A stretch of 5,878 nt of DNA from a virus (taxonomy: Duplodnaviria; Heunggongvirae; Uroviricota; Caudoviricetes): the IMG/VR virus record IMGVR_UViG_2681813274_000006; one strand, 5' to 3'. The notes below the pieces were generated by a model that saw nothing but the letters and a program-made list of their open reading frames with translations, made no database searches and was not told where the DNA came from. Position numbers and translations under genes: made by a program. Shown piece after piece: positions 632 through 5,878 of this stretch. The number at the start of each line of letters is the position of its first letter. The first letter of the stretch is position 1.

Positions 632-1189
632 ATGAATACAGCTATAACTTTTTCTAACGAGTCACCAAAAGTCTTTTTCAAAGATGGTCGCCTGGTTACC
701 ACCTCTCAAGCTGTTGCCGACTACTTCGATAAACAACATAAACACGTTTTAGCTAAGATTGACACACTCGACTGCTCTCCCGAATTTACATCAGCCAACT
801 TTTCGGCCGATGTTCAGACTGTCGAAATTGGCAACGGCGCAGAACGTGAATCACGATGCTACCTGATCACAAAAGACGGCTTCATGTTCCTCGTAATGGG
901 ATTTACTGGCAAAAAAGCAGCCAGACTAAAAGAAGCTTACATTGAAAAATTTAACGCAATGGAAGAAGAACTCCACAAACGTCCTCCTGCAGCACAAAAC
1001 TCCCCCGCCCCAAATAATGGATGCGCATTACTGATCCACTTCGATAAACACGGTCAGGTCGAGTTCACAGAAAAAGTCCCCGCCGATGCGATGGTATGCA
1101 CTCTGGAACGGTTTAAATTTTATCTGGAGCAACATGGGTGGATCGTTGCCCGTAAAGAACAATTGGTGGAAAGGTTGATGCGGTTTTAA
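632..1189 (+). CDS. Rha-family phage regulatory protein: N-terminal Rha-like domain (about 110 aa) plus an uncharacterised C-terminal region (about 70 aa)
   Basis: Open frame of 186 codons from ATG 632 (the ORF track starts at TTG 617; ATG 632 with GGAG upstream is the more likely start). The N-terminal part (TTSQAVADYFDKQHKHVLAKIDTL ... CYLITKDGFMFLVMGFTGKKAARLKEAYIEKF) matches the pattern I recall for the phage Rha regulatory domain. Stop TAA at 1187-1189. Confidence 0.75.
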   Translation: MNTAITFSNESPKVFFKDGRLVTTSQAVADYFDKQHKHVLAKIDTLDCSPEFTSANFSADVQTVEIGNGAERESRCYLITKDGFMFLVMGFTGKKAARLKEAYIEKFNAMEEELHKRPPAAQNSPAPNNGCALLIHFDKHGQVEFTEKVPADAMVCTLERFKFYLEQHGWIVARKEQLVERLMRF

Positions 1190-1198
1190 TGAATGCAA

Positions 1199-1230
1199 AA
1201 CCCCGGATGATCACCGAGGTTAATTTTATC
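1199..1230 (+). terminator. Weak candidate intrinsic terminator after rha
   Basis: AACCCCGG (1199-1206) / CCGAGGTT (1214-1221) forms an imperfect 8-bp stem (one mismatch) with a 7-nt loop, followed by AATTTTATC. Confidence 0.3.
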
Positions 1231-1315
1231 GAGCGTGATTGCCGCTAATCGCCATCGCTCTGATTGAGCGTAAATCATTCAGGTTATTCAGTTCTTCCTT
1301 CTGCTCTCGCTGACG

Positions 1316-1486
1316 TCAATAAATCCCATCATTGCGATCAACCTCATCCTTAACCATTGATGCGAGCAGTTCTTCCAGTTTCTGCGCTGACAGCTTTACC
1401 TGGTGATCTTCAGCATCTTCCCGGGCTATTGTGGTTCGCGCAGTGGCTGATTTTGCTGACATCACCACAGGGGGCAGACGGACCAT
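1316..1486 (-). CDS. Hypothetical small protein (56 aa), convergent with rha
   Basis: ATG at 1486-1484 preceded by GGAGG with a 10-nt spacer (complement of 1497-1501); TGA stop at 1318-1316. Product MVRLPPVVMSAKSATARTTIAREDAEDHQVKLSAQKLEELLASMVKDEVDRNDGIY is charged and probably helical. The track ORF 1316-1597 starts at a TTG with no ribosome-binding site, so I prefer the internal ATG. No family recognised. Confidence 0.35.
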   Translation of the reverse strand: MVRLPPVVMSAKSATARTTIAREDAEDHQVKLSAQKLEELLASMVKDEVDRNDGIY

Positions 1487-1552
1487 TGAACCATGGCCTC
1501 CGGAACAAATAAGGGCAAAAATAACAACCACTATCGAAAGCTCACAAACTAA

Positions 1553-1586
1553 CCGCAGCACGTTCCTGCATACGACGTGTCTGCGG
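1553..1586 (-). terminator. GC-rich hairpin 15 nt downstream of the tfa-fragment stop; member of a recurring hairpin family
   Basis: CCGCAGCACGT (1553-1563) pairs with ACGTGTCTGCGG (1575-1586) with one bulge and an 11-nt loop; a moderately U-rich tract follows on the minus strand. Confidence 0.35.
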
Positions 1587-1600
1587 CATAATCCCAATGA

Positions 1601-1962
1601 TTACTCCCTGACAGGATTTGCAGGCCACTCAATATCAGGTGCAGTTGATGTATCAACACGATTCAACAATACCCGATATTTATTCCATGCCTCCAGCAAC
1701 GATCTTTCTTCCTCCGTTGCGATTTCCAGATCTACAGCATCCTGCAGTGGCGCAATATACTCACTAAATTCCTGGATGTAGAACTGTGTGGTGACGGTCT
1801 TCCAGCCATTCGGCTNNNNNNNNNNNNNNNNNNNNNNNNNNNNNNNNNNNNNNNNNNNNNNNNNNNNNNNNNNNNNNNNNNNNNNNNNCTCACTAAATTC
1901 CTGGATGTAGAACTGTGTGGTGACGGTCTTCCAGCCATTCGGCTCCTGCTGTATCGAAGCAT
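1601..1962 (-). pseudogene. Tail fibre assembly protein (lambda Tfa-like), 3' fragment only
   Basis: Minus-strand translation gives ...[70 protein letters not shown], matching the C-terminus I recall for lambda Tfa ([24 protein letters not shown]). The frame is closed upstream by TAG (complement of 1963-1965) with no N-terminal Tfa region. The track ORF 1732-1962 (-) is in a different frame and does not give this product. The region spans the masked 1816-1888 gap. Confidence 0.7.
1760..1944. repeat. Tandem direct duplication inside the tfa fragment: 56 bp identical at 1760-1815 and 1889-1944, 129-bp period
   Basis: Exact 56/56 identity on either side of the 73-nt N block. 129 bp is 43 codons, so the duplication is in-frame if the masked length is real. 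Confidence 0.6.
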
Positions 1963-2026
1963 ACTAGGCTATTTCAATATCGCTATGCTGCGGCAGCATT
2001 TAACCCCTTGTAATTCATCGCCATAA

Positions 2027-2055
2027 TTGATTTAATTCACAAATAAAACTATAAT
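2027..2055 (+). promoter_or_regulatory. Sigma70-like promoter for the methyltransferase gene
   Basis: TTGATT (2027-2032), 17-bp spacer, consensus TATAAT (2050-2055). The -10 abuts the ATG at 2056, so the real start may be the in-frame ATG at 2068 (MKKNTDD...), preceded by GGTGA. Confidence 0.4.
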
Positions 2056-2724
2056 ATGGTGAAATTAATGAAAAAAAACACAGATGATGGGGCTAAAATT
2101 TACACACCACTTACCCTAAAGCTTTATGACTGGTGGGTTTTGGGAGTATCAAATCGGCTTGCATGGGGATGTCCTACAAAGGAACACCTTCTTCCACACT
2201 TTCTGGAACATTTAGGTAACAACCATCTGGATATTGGTGTTGGAACTGGGTTTTACCTTACTCACGTACCTGAGAGTAGTCTGATATCTTTAATGGATTT
2301 GAACGAAGCTAGCCTGAACGCGGCATCTACAAGGGCTGGGGAATCAAAAATTAAACATAAAATTAGCCATGATGTTTTTGAACCTTATCCCGCGGCGTTA
2401 CATGGTCAATTTGATTCCATTTCCATGTTTTACCTTCTTCACTGCCTGCCTGGAAATATATCTACAAAAAGCTGTGTAATACGCAATGCGGCGCAGGCCT
2501 TAACTGACGATGGAACTCTATACGGAGCCACAATTCTTGGCGATGGAGTTGTGCACAATAGCTTCGGTCAAAAACTGATGCGCATTTACAATCAGAAAGG
2601 CATCTTTTCAAACACAAAAGATTCCGAAGAAGGCTTAACACATATACTCTCAGAGCATTTCGAGAATGTTAAAACCAGGGTTCAAGGTACTGTAGTAATG
2701 TTTTCCGCTTCAGGGAAAAAATAG
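2056..2724 (+). CDS. Class I SAM-dependent methyltransferase (orphan; small-molecule or protein type rather than DNA type)
   Basis: 222-codon ORF with glycine-rich SAM-binding motif I (LDIGVGTGFY), an acidic residue at the end of the following strand (LMDLNE), and a motif II/III-like FDSISMFYLLHCLP. No DPPY/NPPY or PCQ DNA-methyltransferase motifs. Markedly more AT-rich than its flanks. From memory it resembles the prophage methyltransferases ybcY/ymfD of E. coli; not verified. Confidence 0.8.
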   Translation: MVKLMKKNTDDGAKIYTPLTLKLYDWWVLGVSNRLAWGCPTKEHLLPHFLEHLGNNHLDIGVGTGFYLTHVPESSLISLMDLNEASLNAASTRAGESKIKHKISHDVFEPYPAALHGQFDSISMFYLLHCLPGNISTKSCVIRNAAQALTDDGTLYGATILGDGVVHNSFGQKLMRIYNQKGIFSNTKDSEEGLTHILSEHFENVKTRVQGTVVMFSASGKK

Positions 2725-2731
2725 CATCCAA

Positions 2732-2769
2732 CCGCAGCACGTTCTTGCTTAAGACGTGCTACGGTTTCC
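2732..2769 (+). terminator. Candidate intrinsic terminator 8 nt after the methyltransferase stop
   Basis: CCGCAGCACGT (2732-2742) / ACGTGCTACGG (2754-2764) forms an 11-bp stem with one mismatch and an 11-nt loop, followed by TTTCCTTT. The left arm is identical to that of the hairpin at 1553. Confidence 0.45.
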
Positions 2770-3027
2770 TTTACGATTTGGGGTTGCGACTTTACCTCTA
2801 TTGATAATGCATTCCGGCAGAACGTTCAAATATGAACGTACGATATTTAACTAACCGAAAAACAAAATATAGCACAGGCGAGACATTTACCATCTAAGAA
2901 AATAGTATCGTTTTTTTACAGTTAAATCAACATCTCTTCCTTAAAATGAAAACAATAAATTTCAATCCTGAAACATTTTATTTCAGCTTATNNNNNNNNN
3001 NNACGTGCTGCGGCATAATCCCAATGA

Positions 3028-3138
3028 TTACTCCCTGACAGGGTTCGTAGGCCACTCAATATCAGGTGCAGTTGATGTATCAACACGGTTCAGCAACACC
3101 CGATACTTTTTCTAGGCTTCCACCACCAGCACGACAAG
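3028..3138 (-). pseudogene. Second copy of the lambda-type tfa 3' end (about 27-35 codons), fused to the pin remnant
   Basis: Minus-strand translation of 3111-3028 gives [27 protein letters not shown]. It is about 90% identical at nucleotide level to 1575-1685 and is preceded by an in-frame TAG (3114-3112) where the other copy has TGG (Trp). Confidence 0.7.
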
Positions 3139-3354
3139 ATGCCGCATACAGTGCCCCAGTCAGTCCAGTTTTCAGACAACCAGTGCGTCACCTTTTTGAA
3201 GGCGCTTTAAAGCACGTTTTAATCCAGGTCGGCCTGTCCTTGTTCCGCTTAATTTATCTTCAAATATTTGTTCATATCCTGCACAAACAAGAGCGTTTCG
3301 TTGCAGGTCTGTATTCTGGTCATTTGTTGATACCCTTACATAGCCAATCAGCAC
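3139..3354 (-). pseudogene. pin: Pin/Gin/Hin-family serine DNA invertase, N-terminal remnant with in-frame stop codons
   Basis: From GTG 3354: (M)LIGYVRVSTNDQNTDLQRNALVCAGYEQIFEDKLSGTRTGRPGLKRALKRLQKGDALVV, then TGA (3174-3172) where Pin proteins have Trp, then KLD, a second TGA (3162-3160), then LGHCMRH. The catalytic-serine motif YVRVSTxxQ is intact. The remnant stops after about 70 codons instead of the roughly 185-190 aa of intact family members. Confidence 0.85.
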
Positions 3355-3408
3355 GCTGAATCTCCCGTCCAAAAGCACAAATCATGCCATGCAGGCCAGA
3401 AACCGCCA

Positions 3409-3434
3409 TTATCTAAAACCTCGGTTTACGAGAA
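3409..3434. other. gix/pix-type inversion crossover site
   Basis: TTATCTAAAACCTCGGTTTACGAGAA: 26 bp made of two imperfectly inverted 12-bp half-sites around a central dinucleotide. It closely matches the Gin/Hin/Pin crossover consensus as I recall it (TTATCCAAAACCTCGGTTTACAGGAA). It lies between the invertase start and the tail-fibre variable cassette, as in Mu and e14. Confidence 0.6.
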
Positions 3435-4193
3435 CTCGGCACAAGCGGGGAGAAAATACCGTTACTCAGTACAGCGAATACCTGGACTAATCGACAAACA
3501 TTCAGCGGTGGCCTTTCTGGTGAACTATCCGGCAATGCTTCTACAGCTGCAAAATTAAAAACTGCCAGGAAAATAAGCAATGTGGCTTTTGATGGTTCCT
3601 CCGATATCACATTAAAAGCAAGTCATGTTGGTGCGTTTGCCTTAGGGAAAACAGGAAGCACCGTTGCGAATGATAAAGCAGTTGGATGGAACTGGAGTAG
3701 CGGAGCCTATAACGCAACTATTAGTGGTGCATCAACGTTAATTATTCATTTTTATATGGGAGAAGGAAGTTGTCCTGCAGCTCAGTTTCGGATTAATTAT
3801 AAAAATGGCGGTATTTTTTATCGTTCAGCCCGTGATGGTTATGGTTTTGAAGCCGACTGGTCCGAATTTTACACCACCAGAAAACCTTCAGCAGGAGATG
3901 TTGGTGCACTGCCGTTATCTGGTGGTCAACTGAATGGTGCACTGGGTATCGGAACATCCAGTGCTCTTGGCGGTAATTCGATTGTATTGGGTGATAATGA
4001 CACGGGCTTTAAACAAAAAGGCGATGGTAATCTGGATGTTTATGCTAATAACGTCCATGTTATGCGCTTTGTCTCCGGAAGCATTCAAAGTAATAAAACC
4101 ATAAATATTACGGGACGTGTTAATCCCTCGGATTACGGTAACTTTGATTCCCGCTATGTGAGAGATGTCAGACTTGGCACACGAGTTGTTTAG
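3417..4193 (+). CDS. Tail-fibre C-terminal variable-domain cassette; promoterless, with the frame opening inside the crossover site
   Basis: The frame is open from the TAA inside the crossover site (3414-3416) to TAG 4191-4193 (259 codons). The track calls only the GTG at 3582. The product (...LLSTANTWTNRQTFSGGLSGELSGNASTAAKLKTARKISNVAFDGSSDITLKAS...) is Gly/Ser/Thr/Asn-rich like phage tail-fibre distal domains. There is no ATG or ribosome-binding site at the 5' end, consistent with expression only after inversion joins it to a constant region. Confidence 0.7.
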   Translation, partial: NLGLRELGTSGEKIPLLSTANTWTNRQTFSGGLSGELSGNASTAAKLKTARKISNVAFDGSSDITLKASHVGAFALGKTGSTVANDKAVGWNWSSGAYNATISGASTLIIHFYMGEGSCPAAQFRINYKNGGIFYRSARDGYGFEADWSEFYTTRKPSAGDVGALPLSGGQLNGALGIGTSSALGGNSIVLGDNDTGFKQKGDGNLDVYANNVHVMRFVSGSIQSNKTINITGRVNPSDYGNFDSRYVRDVRLGTRVV

Positions 4194-4196
4194 ACC

Positions 4197-4343
4197 ATGA
4201 AGAAAGGCGTGATGTATGAAAAATCAGGCCATGTAATCACGGGGCTTGGTATTATCGGTGAAGTCGATGGTGATGATCCGGCAGTATTCAGACCAATACA
4301 AAAGTTAATTAACGGAACATGGTATAACGTATCGCAGGTATAA
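4197..4343 (+). pseudogene. Detached tail-fibre C-terminal tip (48 codons), separated from the cassette by an in-frame TAG
   Basis: Same frame as 3417-4193, with only TAG plus one codon between them. Its product ...[39 protein letters not shown] aligns with the contiguous C-terminus of the minus-strand fibre ([39 protein letters not shown]). Confidence 0.5.
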
Positions 4344-4345
4344 TC

Positions 4346-4999
4346 ATGCAGCATTTAAAAAACATTGTCGCAGGTAATCCAAAAACCGTTGAACAATACC
4401 AGCTAACAAAGAATTTTGATGTTATCTGGTTATGGTCCGAAGATGGAAAAAATTGGCATGAGGAATTAAAANNNNNNNNNNNNNNNNNNNNNNNNNNNNN
4501 NNNNNNNNNNNNNNNNNNNNNNNNNNNNNNNNNNNNNNNNNNNNNNNNNNNNNNNNNNNNNNNNNNNNNNNNNNNNNNNNNNNNNNNNNNNNNNNNNNNN
4601 NNNNNNNNNNNNNNNNNNNNNNNNNNNNNNNNNNNNNNNNNNNNNNNNNNNNNNNNNNNNNNNNNNNNNNNNNNNNNNNNNNNNNNNNNNNNNNNNNNNN
4701 NNNNNNNNNNNNNNNNNNNNNNNNNNNNNNNNNNNNNNNNNNNNNNNNNNNNNNNNNNNNNNNNNNNNNNNNNNNNNNNNNNNNNNNNNNNNNNNNNNNN
4801 NNNNNNNNNNNNNNNNNNNNNNNNNNNNNNNNNNNNNNNNNNNNNNNNNNNNNNNNNNNNNNNNGACTCTCAGCTACAGCTGGGCATCATTTCCGATGAG
4901 AATAAACAAAAATTAACCGAGTGGATGCTCTATGCGCAGAAGGTTGAATCCACAGACACCTCCAGCCTGCCAGTAACGTTTCCCGAACAACCAGAATGA
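4346..4999 (+). CDS. Tail fibre assembly protein (Tfa); interior masked
   Basis: ATG 4346 lies 2 nt after the preceding stop. The N-terminus [23 protein letters not shown] is paralogous to the minus-strand tfa, and the C-terminus ...[28 protein letters not shown] is Tfa-like. 393 nt of the interior are N-masked, so length and frame continuity are assumed. Confidence 0.75.
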
Positions 5000-5001
5000 G
5001 A

Positions 5002-5032
5002 GAAGGCCCGCTATCGGGCCTTAATTTTTATT
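5002..5032. terminator. Hairpin between the convergent tfa genes; probable terminator
   Basis: GAAGGCCCG (5002-5010), loop CTAT, CGGGCCTT (5015-5022), followed by AATTTTTATT on the plus strand. The T-tract overlaps the stop of the minus-strand tfa (5028-5030). Confidence 0.5.
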
Positions 5033-5555
5033 CAGGCTTTTGTGGCCATTCAGGATTTGCCGTATCCACACGGCTGACCAGAACACTGTAGCGTTCCCAT
5101 GCTTCCAGTCGTGTGCGTTCCTCGTCTGTTGCCATATTCAGCCTGACAGCTCGTTCCAGCGGCTGGATGACTGATTCAGCTTCGGAAAGCAATGCGGCCT
5201 TTTGTGATTCGGCCTGTTGTTGCAGTTCCTGTTCTGTATATTCCCTCTTTACTACTTTACCATCCAGAAACATCCATTTTCCGTTATTGTCTGCGTGACG
5301 ATTTGCCGTAATATCAGGAACTTCAACTATGCTTAGCCCTTCAGGATTAATAGTTGAAACGTCTTTACTGACAGCAACGATGATGTTGTTCTCATCGTAA
5401 GCAATTTTTATGGTGTCTGGCTGAAAATTCTTTTGTTCCTCATACCAGTTTTTGCCATCTTCGCAAAAGAGCCATACCACGCCCGCTTTTTTAGTTAGCT
5501 GGTATTGTTCCGGTGTTTTCGGATTCCCGGCCTTAATATTTTTCAGGTGCATCAT
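5028..5555 (-). CDS. Tail fibre assembly protein (Tfa)
   Basis: ATG at 5555-5553, with GGGGAG about 9 nt upstream, starts 1 nt after the fibre stop. Product [23 protein letters not shown] ... [31 protein letters not shown] has a lambda Tfa-like C-terminal motif. The track ORF starts at an upstream TTG (5591), which I think is less likely. Confidence 0.85.
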
Positions 5556-5556
5556 C

Positions 5557-5878
5557 TTAAACACTCCCCACGTTGTACCATATTCCCCCAATCAATTTCT
5601 GAATTGGCCTTCTGGCAACAGTGTCGACAATATCATCCGCATTGCTGTTAATTGCGGCTGTTAAAACATAACCTGACGCATCGCCAAAGCCGTAGTCGCG
5701 CCATACGTTTTTATATTCAATGCTGCCAAGACGAATATCCCGAACGACATGATTATGCAGCCATGTGCTTAACCAGTTGTTTTCCCACACTGAACCATAA
5801 ATATCGCCACTAGACGCAACTTGCGCACCACTTCCCAGCGCAAATTGAGGTAGCCTGAGTTTAACGGACACTCCTTCC
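5557..5878 (-). CDS. Tail fibre protein, C-terminal part; 5' end lies beyond the window
   Basis: The frame is open to the window edge (the track M at 5871 is a GTG; codons continue upstream). The C-terminus ...[62 protein letters not shown] is homologous to the plus-strand cassette and tip, and is followed directly by tfa. Confidence 0.8.

What the first reader, a model, noticed from the sequence alone, without database searches (positions are those of the whole stretch)
1945..2991. AT-rich cassette carrying an orphan SAM-dependent methyltransferase, inserted between two copies of a tfa 3' end
The segment 1963-2991 is visibly more AT-rich than its flanks. It carries a single gene with its own near-consensus sigma70 promoter and a terminator hairpin, and is bracketed by duplicated tfa 3' ends (1601-1962 and 3028-3138). 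The enzyme has a SAM-binding fold but none of the DNA-methyltransferase catalytic motifs and no partner nuclease, so it is not a classical restriction-modification module. Its substrate is unknown. Self-contained expression and placement in a tail-fibre-adjacent hotspot are typical of lysogenic-conversion or defence cargo, so this is one of the two best candidates here for an undescribed function.
Basis: partly seen in the sequence, partly recalled or inferred. Interest (0 to 1): 0.55.

Follow-up and report, generated by a model that had tools for sequence, protein, structure and literature searches.

The report
ybcY prophage methyltransferase cargo gene
The segment is the long-annotated but still uncharacterised prophage cargo gene ybcY, a small non-DNA methyltransferase found in about 70% of complete E. 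coli genomes, so it is real but ordinary.

Summary
The gene, its promoter-like site, the hairpin and the flanking tfa 3' ends are all present. The interval, however, merges two unrelated things.

- **1963-2766:** this is the ybcY module of lambda-like (DLP12-type) prophages. K-12 already annotates the same layout as tfaD-ybcY-tfaX. At least 80% of promoter plus CDS is present at >=95% identity in 3798 of 5426 complete E. coli genomes and in plaque-forming lambdoid phages.
- **2768-2991:** this most AT-rich part is a separate remnant of an ipaH effector promoter, with an exact MxiE box at 2905-2921.

The protein (218-222 aa, PHROG 2132, unknown function) is a class I SAM methyltransferase. It lacks DNA-methyltransferase motifs and has no conserved partner gene in 80 loci from 30 taxa (mostly genera). 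It matches no defence family and evolves under purifying selection (dN/dS 0.11-0.19). Its structural neighbours are small-molecule and lipid methyltransferases, with no clear nearest family.

The most likely role is a lysogen-expressed, H-NS-bound cargo gene that methylates a small hydrophobic metabolite or xenobiotic. The substrate remains unknown. The conserved unit ends inside the tfa fragment and at the tfa hairpin, which suggests spread by recombination at tail-fibre gene ends.

The N-runs may be assembly joins, because no searched genome holds the 2991/3003 junction.

The parts
1553..1586 (-). Hairpin copy 1, directly downstream (on the minus strand) of the left tfa fragment; a tfa terminator-type hairpin.
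   Evidence: Fold of 1545-1600: -22.0 kcal/mol on the minus strand, z = -3.6. The scan reports a terminator-like site on the minus strand at 1570-1554. 1551-1579 is 90% identical to 2730-2758.
1601..1962 (-). 3' fragment of a tail-fibre assembly gene (tfa'; equivalent to K-12 tfaX). It contains N-run 1816-1888, flanked by an exact 56-bp duplicate.
   Evidence: Annotated as 'tail fiber assembly protein, incomplete, missing N-terminus' in EC958, RX24 and CFSAN029787 and as tfaX in K-12. 118 nt repeat with 3008-3125. 1760-1815 = 1889-1944 at 100%, single-copy in all comparators.
1963..2055 (+). ybcY upstream region. It holds a sigma-70-like promoter TTGATT (2027-2032)-17-TATAAT (2050-2055) and a weaker alternative, TTAACC-16-CATAAT, at 2000-2027.
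   Evidence: Scan. Conservation across phage-borne copies. The K-12 equivalent is the sequence assigned to an RpoD-holoenzyme SELEX peak flagged H-NS (PMC3946193). GC 33.3%.
2056..2724 (+). ybcY-family class I SAM-dependent methyltransferase CDS. The ORF is 222 aa; the conserved start is probably ATG 2068 (218 aa), preceded by GGTGA at 2058-2062.
2730..2766 (.). Hairpin copy 2, between the ybcY stop codon and, in the usual arrangement, the stop codon of a convergent full-length tfa. A probable two-way transcription stop, and the right edge of the conserved module.
   Evidence: Fold -18.4 kcal/mol (+) and -24.0 kcal/mol (-), z = -4.6 and -4.9. Homology of most genomes ends at 2764-2767. Phage PhiR49_2 matches only the hairpin, and phage Ayreon only the last 36 nt of ybcY plus the hairpin.
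2768..2991 (+). This is not part of the methyltransferase module. It is a remnant of an ipaH-type type III effector promoter region, with an exact MxiE box at 2905-2921. The ipaH CDS is absent from the window.
   Evidence: 99.4-99.5% identical to the sequence upstream of ipaHe in CFSAN029787 and in Shigella flexneri-type loci, where the ipaHe ATG lies 49 bp beyond the window-2991 equivalent. MxiE box GTATCGTTTTTTTACAG: 0 of 200 shuffles match. GC 31.7%.
3003..3138 (-). Right arm of a third hairpin copy (3003-3014), followed by a second short tfa 3' fragment (stop codon at 3028-3030). It is joined to an N-terminal fragment of a pin-type invertase at 3172-3378.
   Evidence: Alignment A2. Repeat D1. 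EC958 annotates an 84-bp tfa pseudogene and a recombinase fragment at this position. Resolvase Pfam hit E = 4.6e-15.

Best explanation
Window 1963-2766, together with the adjoining part of the tfa fragment, is the ybcY module of lambda-like (DLP12-type) prophages of Escherichia and Shigella. It is a single-gene cargo unit (a 'moron') lying between the tail-fibre operon and the attachment-site end of the phage.

**Shown**
- The gene is convergent with stf-tfa and ends at a copy of the hairpin that follows the tfa stop codon.
- Every copy examined carries about 100-150 bp of a truncated tfa upstream.
- The unit is nearly invariant (>=98.5% identity) across nine comparison loci, while the sequence on either side changes.
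- The product is a 218-aa cytoplasmic class I SAM-dependent methyltransferase under purifying selection. It is not a DNA methyltransferase and has no conserved partner protein.

**Inferred**
- It is transcribed in the lysogen from its own sigma-70 promoter, independently of the phage late operon, and is probably damped by H-NS.
- It methylates (O-, N- or S-) a small, probably hydrophobic, metabolite, lipid-like molecule or xenobiotic. This would benefit the host as lysogenic conversion or detoxification rather than acting on DNA or blocking phage.
- The module spreads between phages, and is lost from them, by recombination at the tfa 3' end and hairpin sequences that lambdoid phages share.

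The window's copy sits in a decayed prophage end next to an ipaH promoter remnant and broken pieces of an invertible tail-fibre segment.
For: **Identity**
- 98.5-99.5% DNA identity to ybcY loci, including K-12 (tfaD-ybcY-tfaX).
- PHROG 2132, E = 1.9e-156.
- 3798 of 5426 complete E. coli genomes carry >=80% of promoter plus CDS at >=95% identity, with up to 4 places per genome.
- Present in plaque-forming lambdoid phages 2G7b, ev243, Turner and the PhiR series, between the tail-fibre genes and ompT/int.

**Module edges**
- All compared lineages are conserved from about 100-150 bp inside tfa' to the hairpin.
- To the right there are three different continuations: full-length tfa; ynaM-ydfK-pin; or the ipaH promoter.

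**Enzyme class**
- Motif I D59-x-G61-x-G63-T-G65, with acidic D81 and D106 invariant.
- Pfam Methyltransf_12/23/25/11.
- Top Foldseek hit is the phospholipid N-methyltransferase PmtA (8ys9, E = 1.2e-11).
- Best sequence hits among solved structures are juvenile-hormone acid methyltransferase (E = 1.4e-5) and UbiG (E = 1.4e-3).

**Not a DNA methyltransferase, restriction-modification or defence gene**
- No DPPY-type or PCQ motif (read directly from the sequence).
- No conserved neighbour in 80 loci from 30 taxa, mostly genera.
- PADLOC gives only a 14.6-bit hit.

**Functional gene**
- dN/dS is 0.19, 0.11 and 0.11 against the Citrobacter, Salmonella and Enterobacter copies.
- 61 columns are invariant across 28 sequences down to 56% identity.

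**Expression**
- Conserved promoter region.
- An RpoD-holoenzyme SELEX peak with an H-NS flag lies at the K-12 ybcY/tfaX spacer (PMC3946193).

**Weak hints of a lipid or acyl substrate**
- Synteny DUF6388-methyltransferase-enoyl-CoA hydratase holds in 15-17 of 19 Pseudomonas loci.
- Esterase or lipase genes lie nearby in Erwinia, Enterobacter, Yersinia and the E. coli phages.
Against: - No substrate, product or phenotype is known. A K-12 ybcY mutant (K-12 carries a pseudogene) showed no effect in the one assay found (PMC2408971).
- If TATAAT at 2050-2055 is the -10 element, transcription would start at about 2062. That leaves almost no leader before ATG 2068 and cuts off the GGTGA ribosome-binding site, so either the start codon or the promoter assignment is uncertain.
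- The promoter match is not above chance by the scan alone, and the hairpin fails the terminator criteria.
- The lipid and esterase neighbourhood hints involve unrelated protein families and may be coincidence.
- The Pseudomonas synteny is limited to one genus.
Confidence: 0.6

Rival explanations
1. It is a membrane-lipid methyltransferase. YbcY would modify a phospholipid head group (as PmtA does) or esterify a fatty or isoprenoid acid (as juvenile-hormone acid or fatty-acid O-methyltransferases do), changing the envelope of the lysogen.
For: - The top Foldseek hit is R-type PmtA (8ys9, E = 1.2e-11, TM 0.62-0.66, similar length).
- The best sequence hit among solved structures is juvenile-hormone acid methyltransferase (E = 1.4e-5).
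- The family has an invariant aromatic-rich N-terminal helix (Y24, D25, W26, W27, W37), as lipid and quinone methyltransferases do.
- An enoyl-CoA hydratase gene lies next to it in Pseudomonas, and esterase or lipase genes lie nearby elsewhere.
Against: - The profile match to PmtA is not significant (E = 0.071).
- By the approximate register of that match, the positions that bind the lipid phosphate in PmtA (His117, Ser120; PMC11446283) are an invariant Tyr126 and His129 here.
- E. coli is not known to make methylated phosphatidylethanolamine or phosphatidylcholine, although 70% of genomes carry the gene (established knowledge, not tested here).
Confidence: 0.15
2. It is an RNA or protein methyltransferase that modifies a tRNA, an rRNA or a host protein.
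Against: - No RNA-binding or extra domain; the protein is a bare 218-aa catalytic core.
- No NCBIfam RNA-methyltransferase family is matched at E <= 0.01.
- The nearest sequence and Foldseek matches are all small-molecule enzymes.
Confidence: 0.1
3. It is anti-phage defence or counter-defence cargo, for example an orphan DNA methyltransferase or part of a defence system in a tail-fibre-adjacent hotspot.
For: - It sits in the variable cargo region of temperate phages.
- There is a marginal PADLOC hit to mad2 (E = 0.0026, 14.6 bits).
Against: - No DNA-methyltransferase catalytic motif and no target-recognition domain (sequence).
- No conserved partner in 80 loci.
- Most homologues are ordinary chromosomal genes with host-like GC content, in Pseudomonas, Erwinia and Salmonella.
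- The PADLOC hit is at the level expected for any class I methyltransferase fold.
Confidence: 0.05
4. It is a silent passenger. The gene has no current function in E. coli and persists only because it is embedded between the recombination-prone tfa ends of very common prophages.
For: - It is a pseudogene in K-12.
- Truncated variants are common in the protein clusters (for example P0028, 161 aa, 445 members).
- H-NS is flagged at the K-12 promoter spacer.
- The K-12 mutant showed no phenotype.
Against: - dN/dS is 0.11-0.19 across lineages.
- The intact 222-aa cluster has 6589 member sequences.
- 3798 genomes keep >=80% of the unit at >=95% identity.
- The promoter region is conserved even in a Citrobacter copy with 90% protein identity.
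Confidence: 0.1

Closest known systems
E. coli K-12 ybcY (b0562), cryptic prophage DLP12, flanked by tfaD and tfaX
   Same: It is the same gene and the same layout: full tfa, convergent ybcY, then a tfa 3' fragment. DNA identity is 98.5% over window 1889-2764. The promoter hexamers are shared (TTGATT-17-TATAAC in K-12).
   Different: K-12's copy is annotated as a pseudogene; the window's ORF is intact and 100% identical in protein to Shigella flexneri-type copies. In the window the right-hand neighbour is an ipaH promoter remnant and a tfa stub, not a full-length tfa.
PHROG 2132 (phage protein family of unknown function) / NCBI 'class I SAM-dependent methyltransferase' WP_000239881 and WP_000240999
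   Same: Full-length match, E = 1.9e-156, residues 5-222 to profile positions 1-218. The same protein names are annotated in the best-matching genomes.
   Different: Nothing; this is membership. The family has no assigned function.
Salmonella STM1638 and other chromosomal homologues in Enterobacter, Erwinia, Yersinia and Pseudomonas
   Same: 50-68% protein identity over the full length, with all family motifs invariant. All are stand-alone genes.
   Different: They are not linked to tfa or to prophages. Their contexts differ between genera: next to rydC/cybB in Salmonella, and DUF6388 and enoyl-CoA hydratase in Pseudomonas. Their GC content is host-like, unlike the E. coli copy. They are also uncharacterised.
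R-type phosphatidylethanolamine N-methyltransferase PmtA (PDB 8ys9)
   Same: It is the best Foldseek match (E = 1.2e-11), of similar size (207-217 aa), with the same class I core plus an N-terminal helical lid. The SAM contacts Gly53 and Asp73 of PmtA correspond to G61 and D81 here.
   Different: Identity is 17% and the profile E-value is 0.071. The lipid-phosphate ligands His117 and Ser120 are not conserved in the approximate register. There is no evidence of membrane binding, and E. coli is not known to make phosphatidylcholine (established knowledge).
Juvenile-hormone acid O-methyltransferase (PDB 7ebs, 7ec0) and UbiG
   Same: They are the best sequence-level matches among solved structures (E = 1.4e-5 and 1.4e-3), covering motif I to beyond strand 5.
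   Different: Only the SAM-binding core aligns, at about 21% identity. The substrate-binding N- and C-terminal parts do not align, so the match says nothing about the substrate.
Lambda-type cargo genes ('morons', such as lom and bor) and the effector loci beside lambdoid tail-fibre genes
   Same: It is a single gene with its own promoter and a hairpin, lower in GC than its flanks, placed beyond the tail-fibre genes. In some genomes it lies directly beside a type III effector gene (ipaHe).
   Different: The product is a cytoplasmic enzyme, not a surface protein or a secreted effector. No hrp or PIP boxes were found upstream of homologues. The MxiE box in the window faces away from ybcY, towards the missing ipaH gene.

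Membership tests
YbcY family / PHROG 2132 | Full-length match to the family profile | tested here: met
   E = 1.9e-156, 518.9 bits, residues 5-222 against profile 1-218 of 218.
YbcY family / PHROG 2132 | Family-specific invariant motifs (YDWWVL..SN..AW.C.T; HLD.GVGTG.Y; DS.S..YL.HCL.G; GATI.G; YN.KGIF.N..D) | tested here: met
   All 61 invariant columns of the 28-sequence alignment A1 are present in the window protein.
YbcY family / PHROG 2132 | Genomic layout of the phage-borne lineage: convergent with tfa, shared hairpin, tfa 3' fragment upstream | tested here: met
   The left fragment and hairpin are present. The same layout is seen in K-12, EC958, RX24 and phage 2G7b. In the window the right-hand tfa is only a stub beyond an N-run.
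Class I (Rossmann-like) SAM-dependent methyltransferases | Motif I (D/E-x-G-x-G-x-G) and an acidic residue at the end of strand 2 | tested here: met
   D59-I-G61-V-G63-T-G65 and D81 are invariant. Pfam Methyltransf_12 E = 3.8e-9, above the gathering score.
Class I (Rossmann-like) SAM-dependent methyltransferases | Seven-stranded beta-sheet fold | tested here: met
DNA methyltransferases of restriction-modification systems | Catalytic motif IV ((D/N/S)PP(Y/F/W) for N6/N4 enzymes, or PCQ for C5 enzymes) and a target-recognition domain | tested here: not met
   Neither motif occurs in the 222-aa sequence (read directly). The protein is a bare 218-aa core. No DNA methyltransferase Pfam family is hit.
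DNA methyltransferases of restriction-modification systems | Adjacent restriction endonuclease or specificity subunit | tested here: not met
   There is none in the window. No conserved neighbour exists in 80 loci from 30 taxa, mostly genera.
Known anti-phage defence systems (PADLOC-DB 2.0) | Significant match to a defence-system protein model, with the partner genes present | tested here: not met
   The only hit is mad2, E = 0.0026, 14.6 bits, over the generic methyltransferase core. There are no partner genes.
R-type PmtA (phospholipid N-methyltransferase) | Significant sequence similarity, plus the catalytic Tyr10 and the phosphate ligands His117 and Ser120 (PMC11446283) | tested here: inconclusive
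   Foldseek E = 1.2e-11, but the profile E-value is 0.071. By the approximate register, Tyr126 and His129 replace His117 and Ser120. The equivalent of the N-terminal Tyr could be Y16, which lies in a low-confidence part of the model. No residue-level structural alignment was available.
Named NCBIfam methyltransferase equivalogs | Score above the curated family cut-off | tested here: not met
   Only CpaM (17.4 bits against a cut-off of 180) and RquA (16.8 bits against 175) appear at E <= 0.01. No other NCBIfam family appears at that threshold.
Type III secreted effectors | Promoter box of the type III secretion regulon upstream (MxiE box, hrp box or PIP box) | tested here: not met
   The MxiE box at 2905-2921 lies downstream of ybcY and faces the missing ipaH gene. 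No hrp or PIP box lies within 400 bp upstream of the gene in any of the 80 homologous loci. A secretion signal cannot be tested with these tools.

The most novel reading that the evidence does not exclude
The YbcY family is a toxin- or signal-neutralising methyltransferase. It would methylate a specific small molecule made by competitors or by the animal or plant host, as Rv0560c does for quinolone toxins or TmtA for gliotoxin. Lambdoid phages would then have spread this resistance trait to about 70% of E. coli, using the tfa 3' end and hairpin as portable recombination handles.
Probability: 0.15. Interest if true: 0.6.

Novelty: already known. Interest (0 to 1): 0.28.

Why it matters
ybcY is among the most common prophage cargo genes in E. 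coli. It is present in 3798 of 5426 complete genomes, often in several copies, yet no study found in the held literature tests its function. Finding its substrate would assign a function to a family of more than a thousand protein clusters across Gammaproteobacteria and some fungi. It would also show what temperate phages gain by carrying it. As a discovery, however, the segment is not new: the gene, its position between tfa copies and its unknown status are already recorded in K-12 annotation and in PHROGs. The practical value of this check is twofold. It separates the methyltransferase module from the unrelated ipaH promoter remnant merged into the same interval. It also flags that the window's N-runs may be assembly joins.

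Tried and rejected
- **Conserved-neighbour search:** I extracted six-frame ORFs from 80 related loci and clustered them with all-against-all BLASTP. Only generic families (ABC ATPase, short-chain dehydrogenase, LysR) recur, at varying distances. The apparent second-largest cluster is an antisense shadow of the methyltransferase gene itself.
- **Effector hypothesis:** I scanned 400 bp upstream of all 80 homologues for hrp and PIP boxes and found none.
- **Defence hypothesis:** PADLOC gave only a 14.6-bit hit.
- **Domain fusions:** ten longer homologues (276-743 aa) were scanned with Pfam and their N-termini inspected. The extensions look like miscalled starts, or an unrelated RCC1 domain in one fungal gene model. 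They gave no clue.
- **PmtA residue mapping:** the PmtA paper has no supplementary text held, so I could not obtain its sequence for a residue-level alignment. Only an approximate register from the HMM hit was used.
- **Source of the window:** an exact-pattern search for the 2991/3003 junction in species-representative genomes found nothing, and BLAST of 2700-3400 found no complete E. coli genome spanning it.
- **Literature:** of 12 papers mentioning ybcY, I read three; they give a SELEX promoter entry, a no-effect mutant and a gene-context note, and none tests function.
- **Palindrome:** ATGCTGCgGCAGCAT at 1986-2000 was considered as an operator. It is not conserved in the Citrobacter copy, so I dropped it.
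Full report
**1. What is in the sequence**

The window carries four N-runs: 135-529, 1816-1888, 2992-3002 and 4472-4864. Within the finding's interval there is one intact ORF, 2056-2724 (+), of 222 aa. The start conserved across the family is Met5 (ATG at 2068, 218 aa). This follows from the 28-sequence alignment and from the phage-family profile matching residues 5-222.

With N excluded, 1963-2991 is 38.7% GC. The two tfa fragments are 47.4% and 50.0%, and the whole window is 43.8%. The interval is not uniform: upstream region 33.3%, CDS 41.0%, hairpin 51%, tail 2768-2991 31.7%. The CDS is no more AT-rich than other phage genes in the window (stf region 43.1%, tfa(+) 41.0%).

A sigma-70-like site, TTGATT-17-TATAAT, lies at 2027-2055. 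The scan finds such sites no more often than in shuffled sequence, 3 against 4.1 expected.

A stable hairpin lies at 2730-2766 (-18.4 kcal/mol, z = -4.55). It fails the terminator criteria.

The two tfa 3' ends are real direct repeats: 1581-1698 against 3008-3125, 118 nt at 90% identity.

**2. Identity**

The interval matches thousands of E. coli genomes, where the gene is annotated as a class I SAM-dependent methyltransferase. In K-12 the same locus is tfaD-ybcY-tfaX in cryptic prophage DLP12, with ybcY marked as a pseudogene. DNA identity to the window is 98.5% over 1889-2764.

Promoter plus CDS (1963-2729) is present at >=80% coverage and >=95% identity in 3798 of 5426 complete E. coli genomes, with up to four places per genome. 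It also occurs in sequenced lambdoid phages such as 2G7b, ev243, Turner and the PhiR series. In those phages the order is J, lom, stf, tfa, then convergent ybcY, then a tfa 3' fragment, then an alpha/beta hydrolase, ompT and int.

The protein is a full-length member of PHROG 2132, a family of unknown function (E = 1.9e-156).

**3. The module and its edges**

I aligned nine loci around the gene. A block is nearly identical in all of them, running from about 100-150 bp inside the upstream tfa fragment through the promoter and CDS to the hairpin. To the left, the tfa fragments diverge to 86-99% identity. To the right of the hairpin there are three different continuations:
- a full-length tfa (RX24, EC958, K-12, phage 2G7b);
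- ynaM-ydfK-pin (KSC64, phage Turner);
- an ipaH promoter (CFSAN029787 and Shigella flexneri-type loci).

The hairpin after ybcY is a copy of the hairpin after tfa: 1551-1579 against 2730-2758 is 90% identical, and a half copy lies at 3003-3014. It folds at least as well on the tfa strand (-24 kcal/mol). Phage PhiR49_2 matches the interval only at the hairpin, and phage Ayreon only at the last 36 nt of ybcY plus the hairpin.

So the 'bracketing' is a conserved feature of an old module, not a fresh insertion in this window. The upstream tfa fragment is best read as the scar of a past exchange of tail-fibre modules. Because the edges of the unit coincide with sequences shared by lambdoid phages, I infer that homologous recombination there moves the gene between phages or deletes it. 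That step is inference.

**4. The last 225 bp are something else**

Only nine complete genomes match 2768-2991. In them this sequence is followed, 49 bp later, by the start of the type III effector gene ipaHe. It contains GTATCGTTTTTTTACAG at 2905-2921. That is an exact match to the MxiE-box consensus as I recall it from the literature (GTATCGTTTTTTTANAG), and 0 of 200 shuffles match.

This segment is the most AT-rich part of the finding's interval and is unrelated to the methyltransferase. The ipaH coding sequence is not in the window.

**5. Window integrity**

The 56 bp at 1760-1815 are repeated exactly at 1889-1944, on either side of an N-run. Every comparator genome has this 56-mer once.

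The pieces between the N-runs also have different closest relatives:
- 530-1815 is 99.8% EC958-like;
- 1889-2991 is 99.4-99.5% like CFSAN029787 and Shigella flexneri-type loci;
- 3003-3400 is 99% EC958-like.

No complete E. coli genome spans 2700-3400. No species-representative genome has the exact 2991/3003 junction. The N-run at 135-529 is 71 nt longer than the EC958 sequence it replaces.

This pattern is what scaffold joins between overlapping contigs would give, perhaps from a genome with two ybcY loci. I cannot prove that. Adjacency across the N-runs should be treated as uncertain.

**6. The enzyme**

The alignment shows the class I motifs: D59-x-G61-x-G63-T-G65, D81 and D106. It also shows family-specific invariant residues in an N-terminal helix (Y24, D25, W26, W27, N33, W37, C39), after strand 4 (Y126, H129, C130), and in a C-terminal segment (N168, Y178, N179, K181, F184, N186, D189).

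The AlphaFold model is confident (pLDDT 85.8, pTM 0.84), except for residues 1-14. The structure and family searches gave:
- **Foldseek:** R-type phosphatidylethanolamine N-methyltransferase PmtA ranks first (8ys9, E = 1.2e-11, TM 0.62-0.66). Many natural-product O-, N- and C-methyltransferases follow closely.
- **Profile against solved-structure sequences:** juvenile-hormone acid methyltransferase 1.4e-5, UbiG 1.4e-3, PmtA 0.071.
- **NCBIfam:** nothing near a curated cut-off.
- **PADLOC:** only a 14.6-bit hit.

The protein has no DPPY-type or PCQ motif and no extra domain. It is therefore a distinct family of small-molecule-type methyltransferases with no characterised member.

By the approximate register of the HMM match, the residues that bind the lipid phosphate in PmtA (His117, Ser120; PMC11446283) correspond to invariant Tyr126 and His129 here. 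The pocket positions are kept but the chemistry differs.

**7. Distribution and selection**

The family has 2296 hits in the 90%-clustered protein collection. A profile search gave 1723 representatives at E <= 0.001, of which 413 are at E <= 1e-30; these include a few fungal proteins.

In Salmonella the homologue is STM1638, beside the small RNA rydC and cybB. In Enterobacter, Erwinia, Yersinia and Aeromonas it stands alone in unrelated contexts. In 80 loci from 30 taxa (mostly genera), no neighbour is conserved across genera. Within Pseudomonas, DUF6388-methyltransferase-enoyl-CoA hydratase synteny holds in 15-17 of 19 loci.

Linkage to tfa is confined to Escherichia and Shigella. Copies with 79-90% protein identity in Citrobacter and Salmonella sit among prophage-type cargo genes (DinI, PerC).

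The gene's GC content equals its flanks in Pseudomonas, Erwinia, Dyella and Salmonella. It is 5-12 points lower than the flanks in Escherichia, Klebsiella, Providencia, Morganella and Hafnia.

dN/dS is 0.19, 0.11 and 0.11 against the Citrobacter, Salmonella and Enterobacter copies. The protein is therefore under purifying selection.

**8. Expression**

The upstream region is almost invariant among phage-borne copies, and largely so in the Citrobacter copy. A genomic-SELEX study reports an RpoD-holoenzyme peak in the K-12 ybcY/tfaX spacer, assigns TTGATT-17-TATAAC to ybcY and flags H-NS there (PMC3946193). This supports an autonomous promoter that H-NS may silence.

One inconsistency remains. 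A -10 element at 2050-2055 predicts a transcript starting near 2062. That would remove the GGTGA ribosome-binding site in front of ATG 2068. The weaker upstream candidate, with its -10 at 2022-2027, would avoid this.

**9. Most likely explanation**

The segment is the ybcY cargo module. It is a lysogen-expressed, stand-alone, cytoplasmic methyltransferase acting on a small, probably hydrophobic, molecule, carried for host benefit. It spreads by recombination at tail-fibre gene ends.
- **Shown:** the identity, the layout and the enzyme class.
- **Inferred:** the substrate class and the benefit to the host.

The rivals are ranked in the Rival explanations section: lipid methylation, an RNA or protein substrate, defence, and silent passenger. 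The only functional mention of ybcY that I found is a K-12 mutant with no effect in an Hha-toxicity assay (PMC2408971).

**10. Verdict**

It overstates novelty, because this is the known gene ybcY in its known position. I found no support for a defence role. Interest is low to moderate. It is a very common 'known unknown' whose substrate would be worth finding, but nothing about it would surprise a specialist.

Noticed in passing
window 2768-2991 (MxiE box 2905-2921, + strand): A remnant of an ipaH-type effector promoter, with an exact match to the MxiE-box consensus as recalled (GTATCGTTTTTTTACAG). It is 99.4-99.5% identical to the sequence upstream of ipaHe in CFSAN029787 and Shigella flexneri-type loci. 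The ipaH CDS, expected to start about 49 bp beyond 2991, is missing; an 11-N run and a tfa stub follow instead.
   Followed up: yes
window 1760-1815, 1816-1888 (N), 1889-1944; also 2992-3002 (N) and 135-529 (N): An exact 56-bp duplicate flanks an N-run, whereas all comparator genomes have it once. The pieces between N-runs have different closest relatives (EC958-like, Shigella-like, EC958-like). No searched genome holds the 2991/3003 junction. This looks like scaffold joins or a composite, so adjacency across the N-runs is uncertain.
   Followed up: partly
window 1553-1586, 2730-2766, 3003-3014: There are three copies (the last a half copy) of the same GC-rich hairpin that follows tfa stop codons. 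It marks the points where lineages switch to different flanking sequence, so it appears to act as a recombination joint as well as a transcription stop.
   Followed up: partly
window 3172-3378 (-), 3400-4343 (+), 4346-4999 (+), 5028-5591 (-), 5557-5878 (-): Broken pieces of an invertible tail-fibre segment: an N-terminal fragment of a pin-type serine invertase (Resolvase, E = 4.6e-15), a C-terminal stf fragment, and two opposed tfa genes with an opposed stf end.
   Followed up: partly
window 4191-4193: The stf fragment (3582-4193) is cut by a single in-frame TAG. The ORF 4197-4343 continues in the same frame and ends with ...[17 protein letters not shown], like the C-terminus of the opposed stf (...[17 protein letters not shown]). 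This points to a nonsense mutation in a tail-fibre pseudogene.
   Followed up: no
window 632-1189 (+) and 1227-1600 (-): An intact Rha-family phage regulatory gene (Phage_pRha, E = 3.5e-27), followed by a decayed DUF4376-type tail-fibre-related pseudogene, as in the prophage end next to trpA in EC958.
   Followed up: no
window 1986-2000: A 15-bp palindrome, ATGCTGCgGCAGCAT, lies just upstream of the ybcY promoter candidates. It is conserved among the E. coli copies but not in the Citrobacter copy with 90% protein identity, so it is probably not an essential operator.
   Followed up: partly
L061 5666-7467 and 14-16 other Pseudomonas loci (L056-L098): In Pseudomonas the homologue sits in a conserved row: DUF6388 (109 aa, 8 bp upstream in L061), the methyltransferase, then an enoyl-CoA hydratase family protein (230 aa). 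This is the only recurrent neighbourhood found for the family. It is confined to one genus.
   Followed up: partly
L007 7001-7663 (Salmonella enterica): The chromosomal Salmonella homologue is STM1638. It lies directly upstream of the small RNA rydC, an activator of cyclopropane fatty acid synthase mRNA, and cybB, about 6 kb from a gene with Sif and GDSL-lipase domains (probably sseJ). The link to lipid methylation may be coincidence.
   Followed up: no
L020 (MAG labelled Bacillus sp.), L030 (MAG labelled Planococcaceae), plasmid record HM037272.1 (Bacillus thuringiensis CT-43): Copies of the E. coli ybcY region with its tfa flanks appear in records labelled as Firmicutes: DNA 99.4% identical over window 1889-2764 in L020, 98.8% in the plasmid record, and a 100% identical protein segment (residues 15-161) in L030. 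This is most likely E. coli or cloning-host contamination of those assemblies.
   Followed up: no
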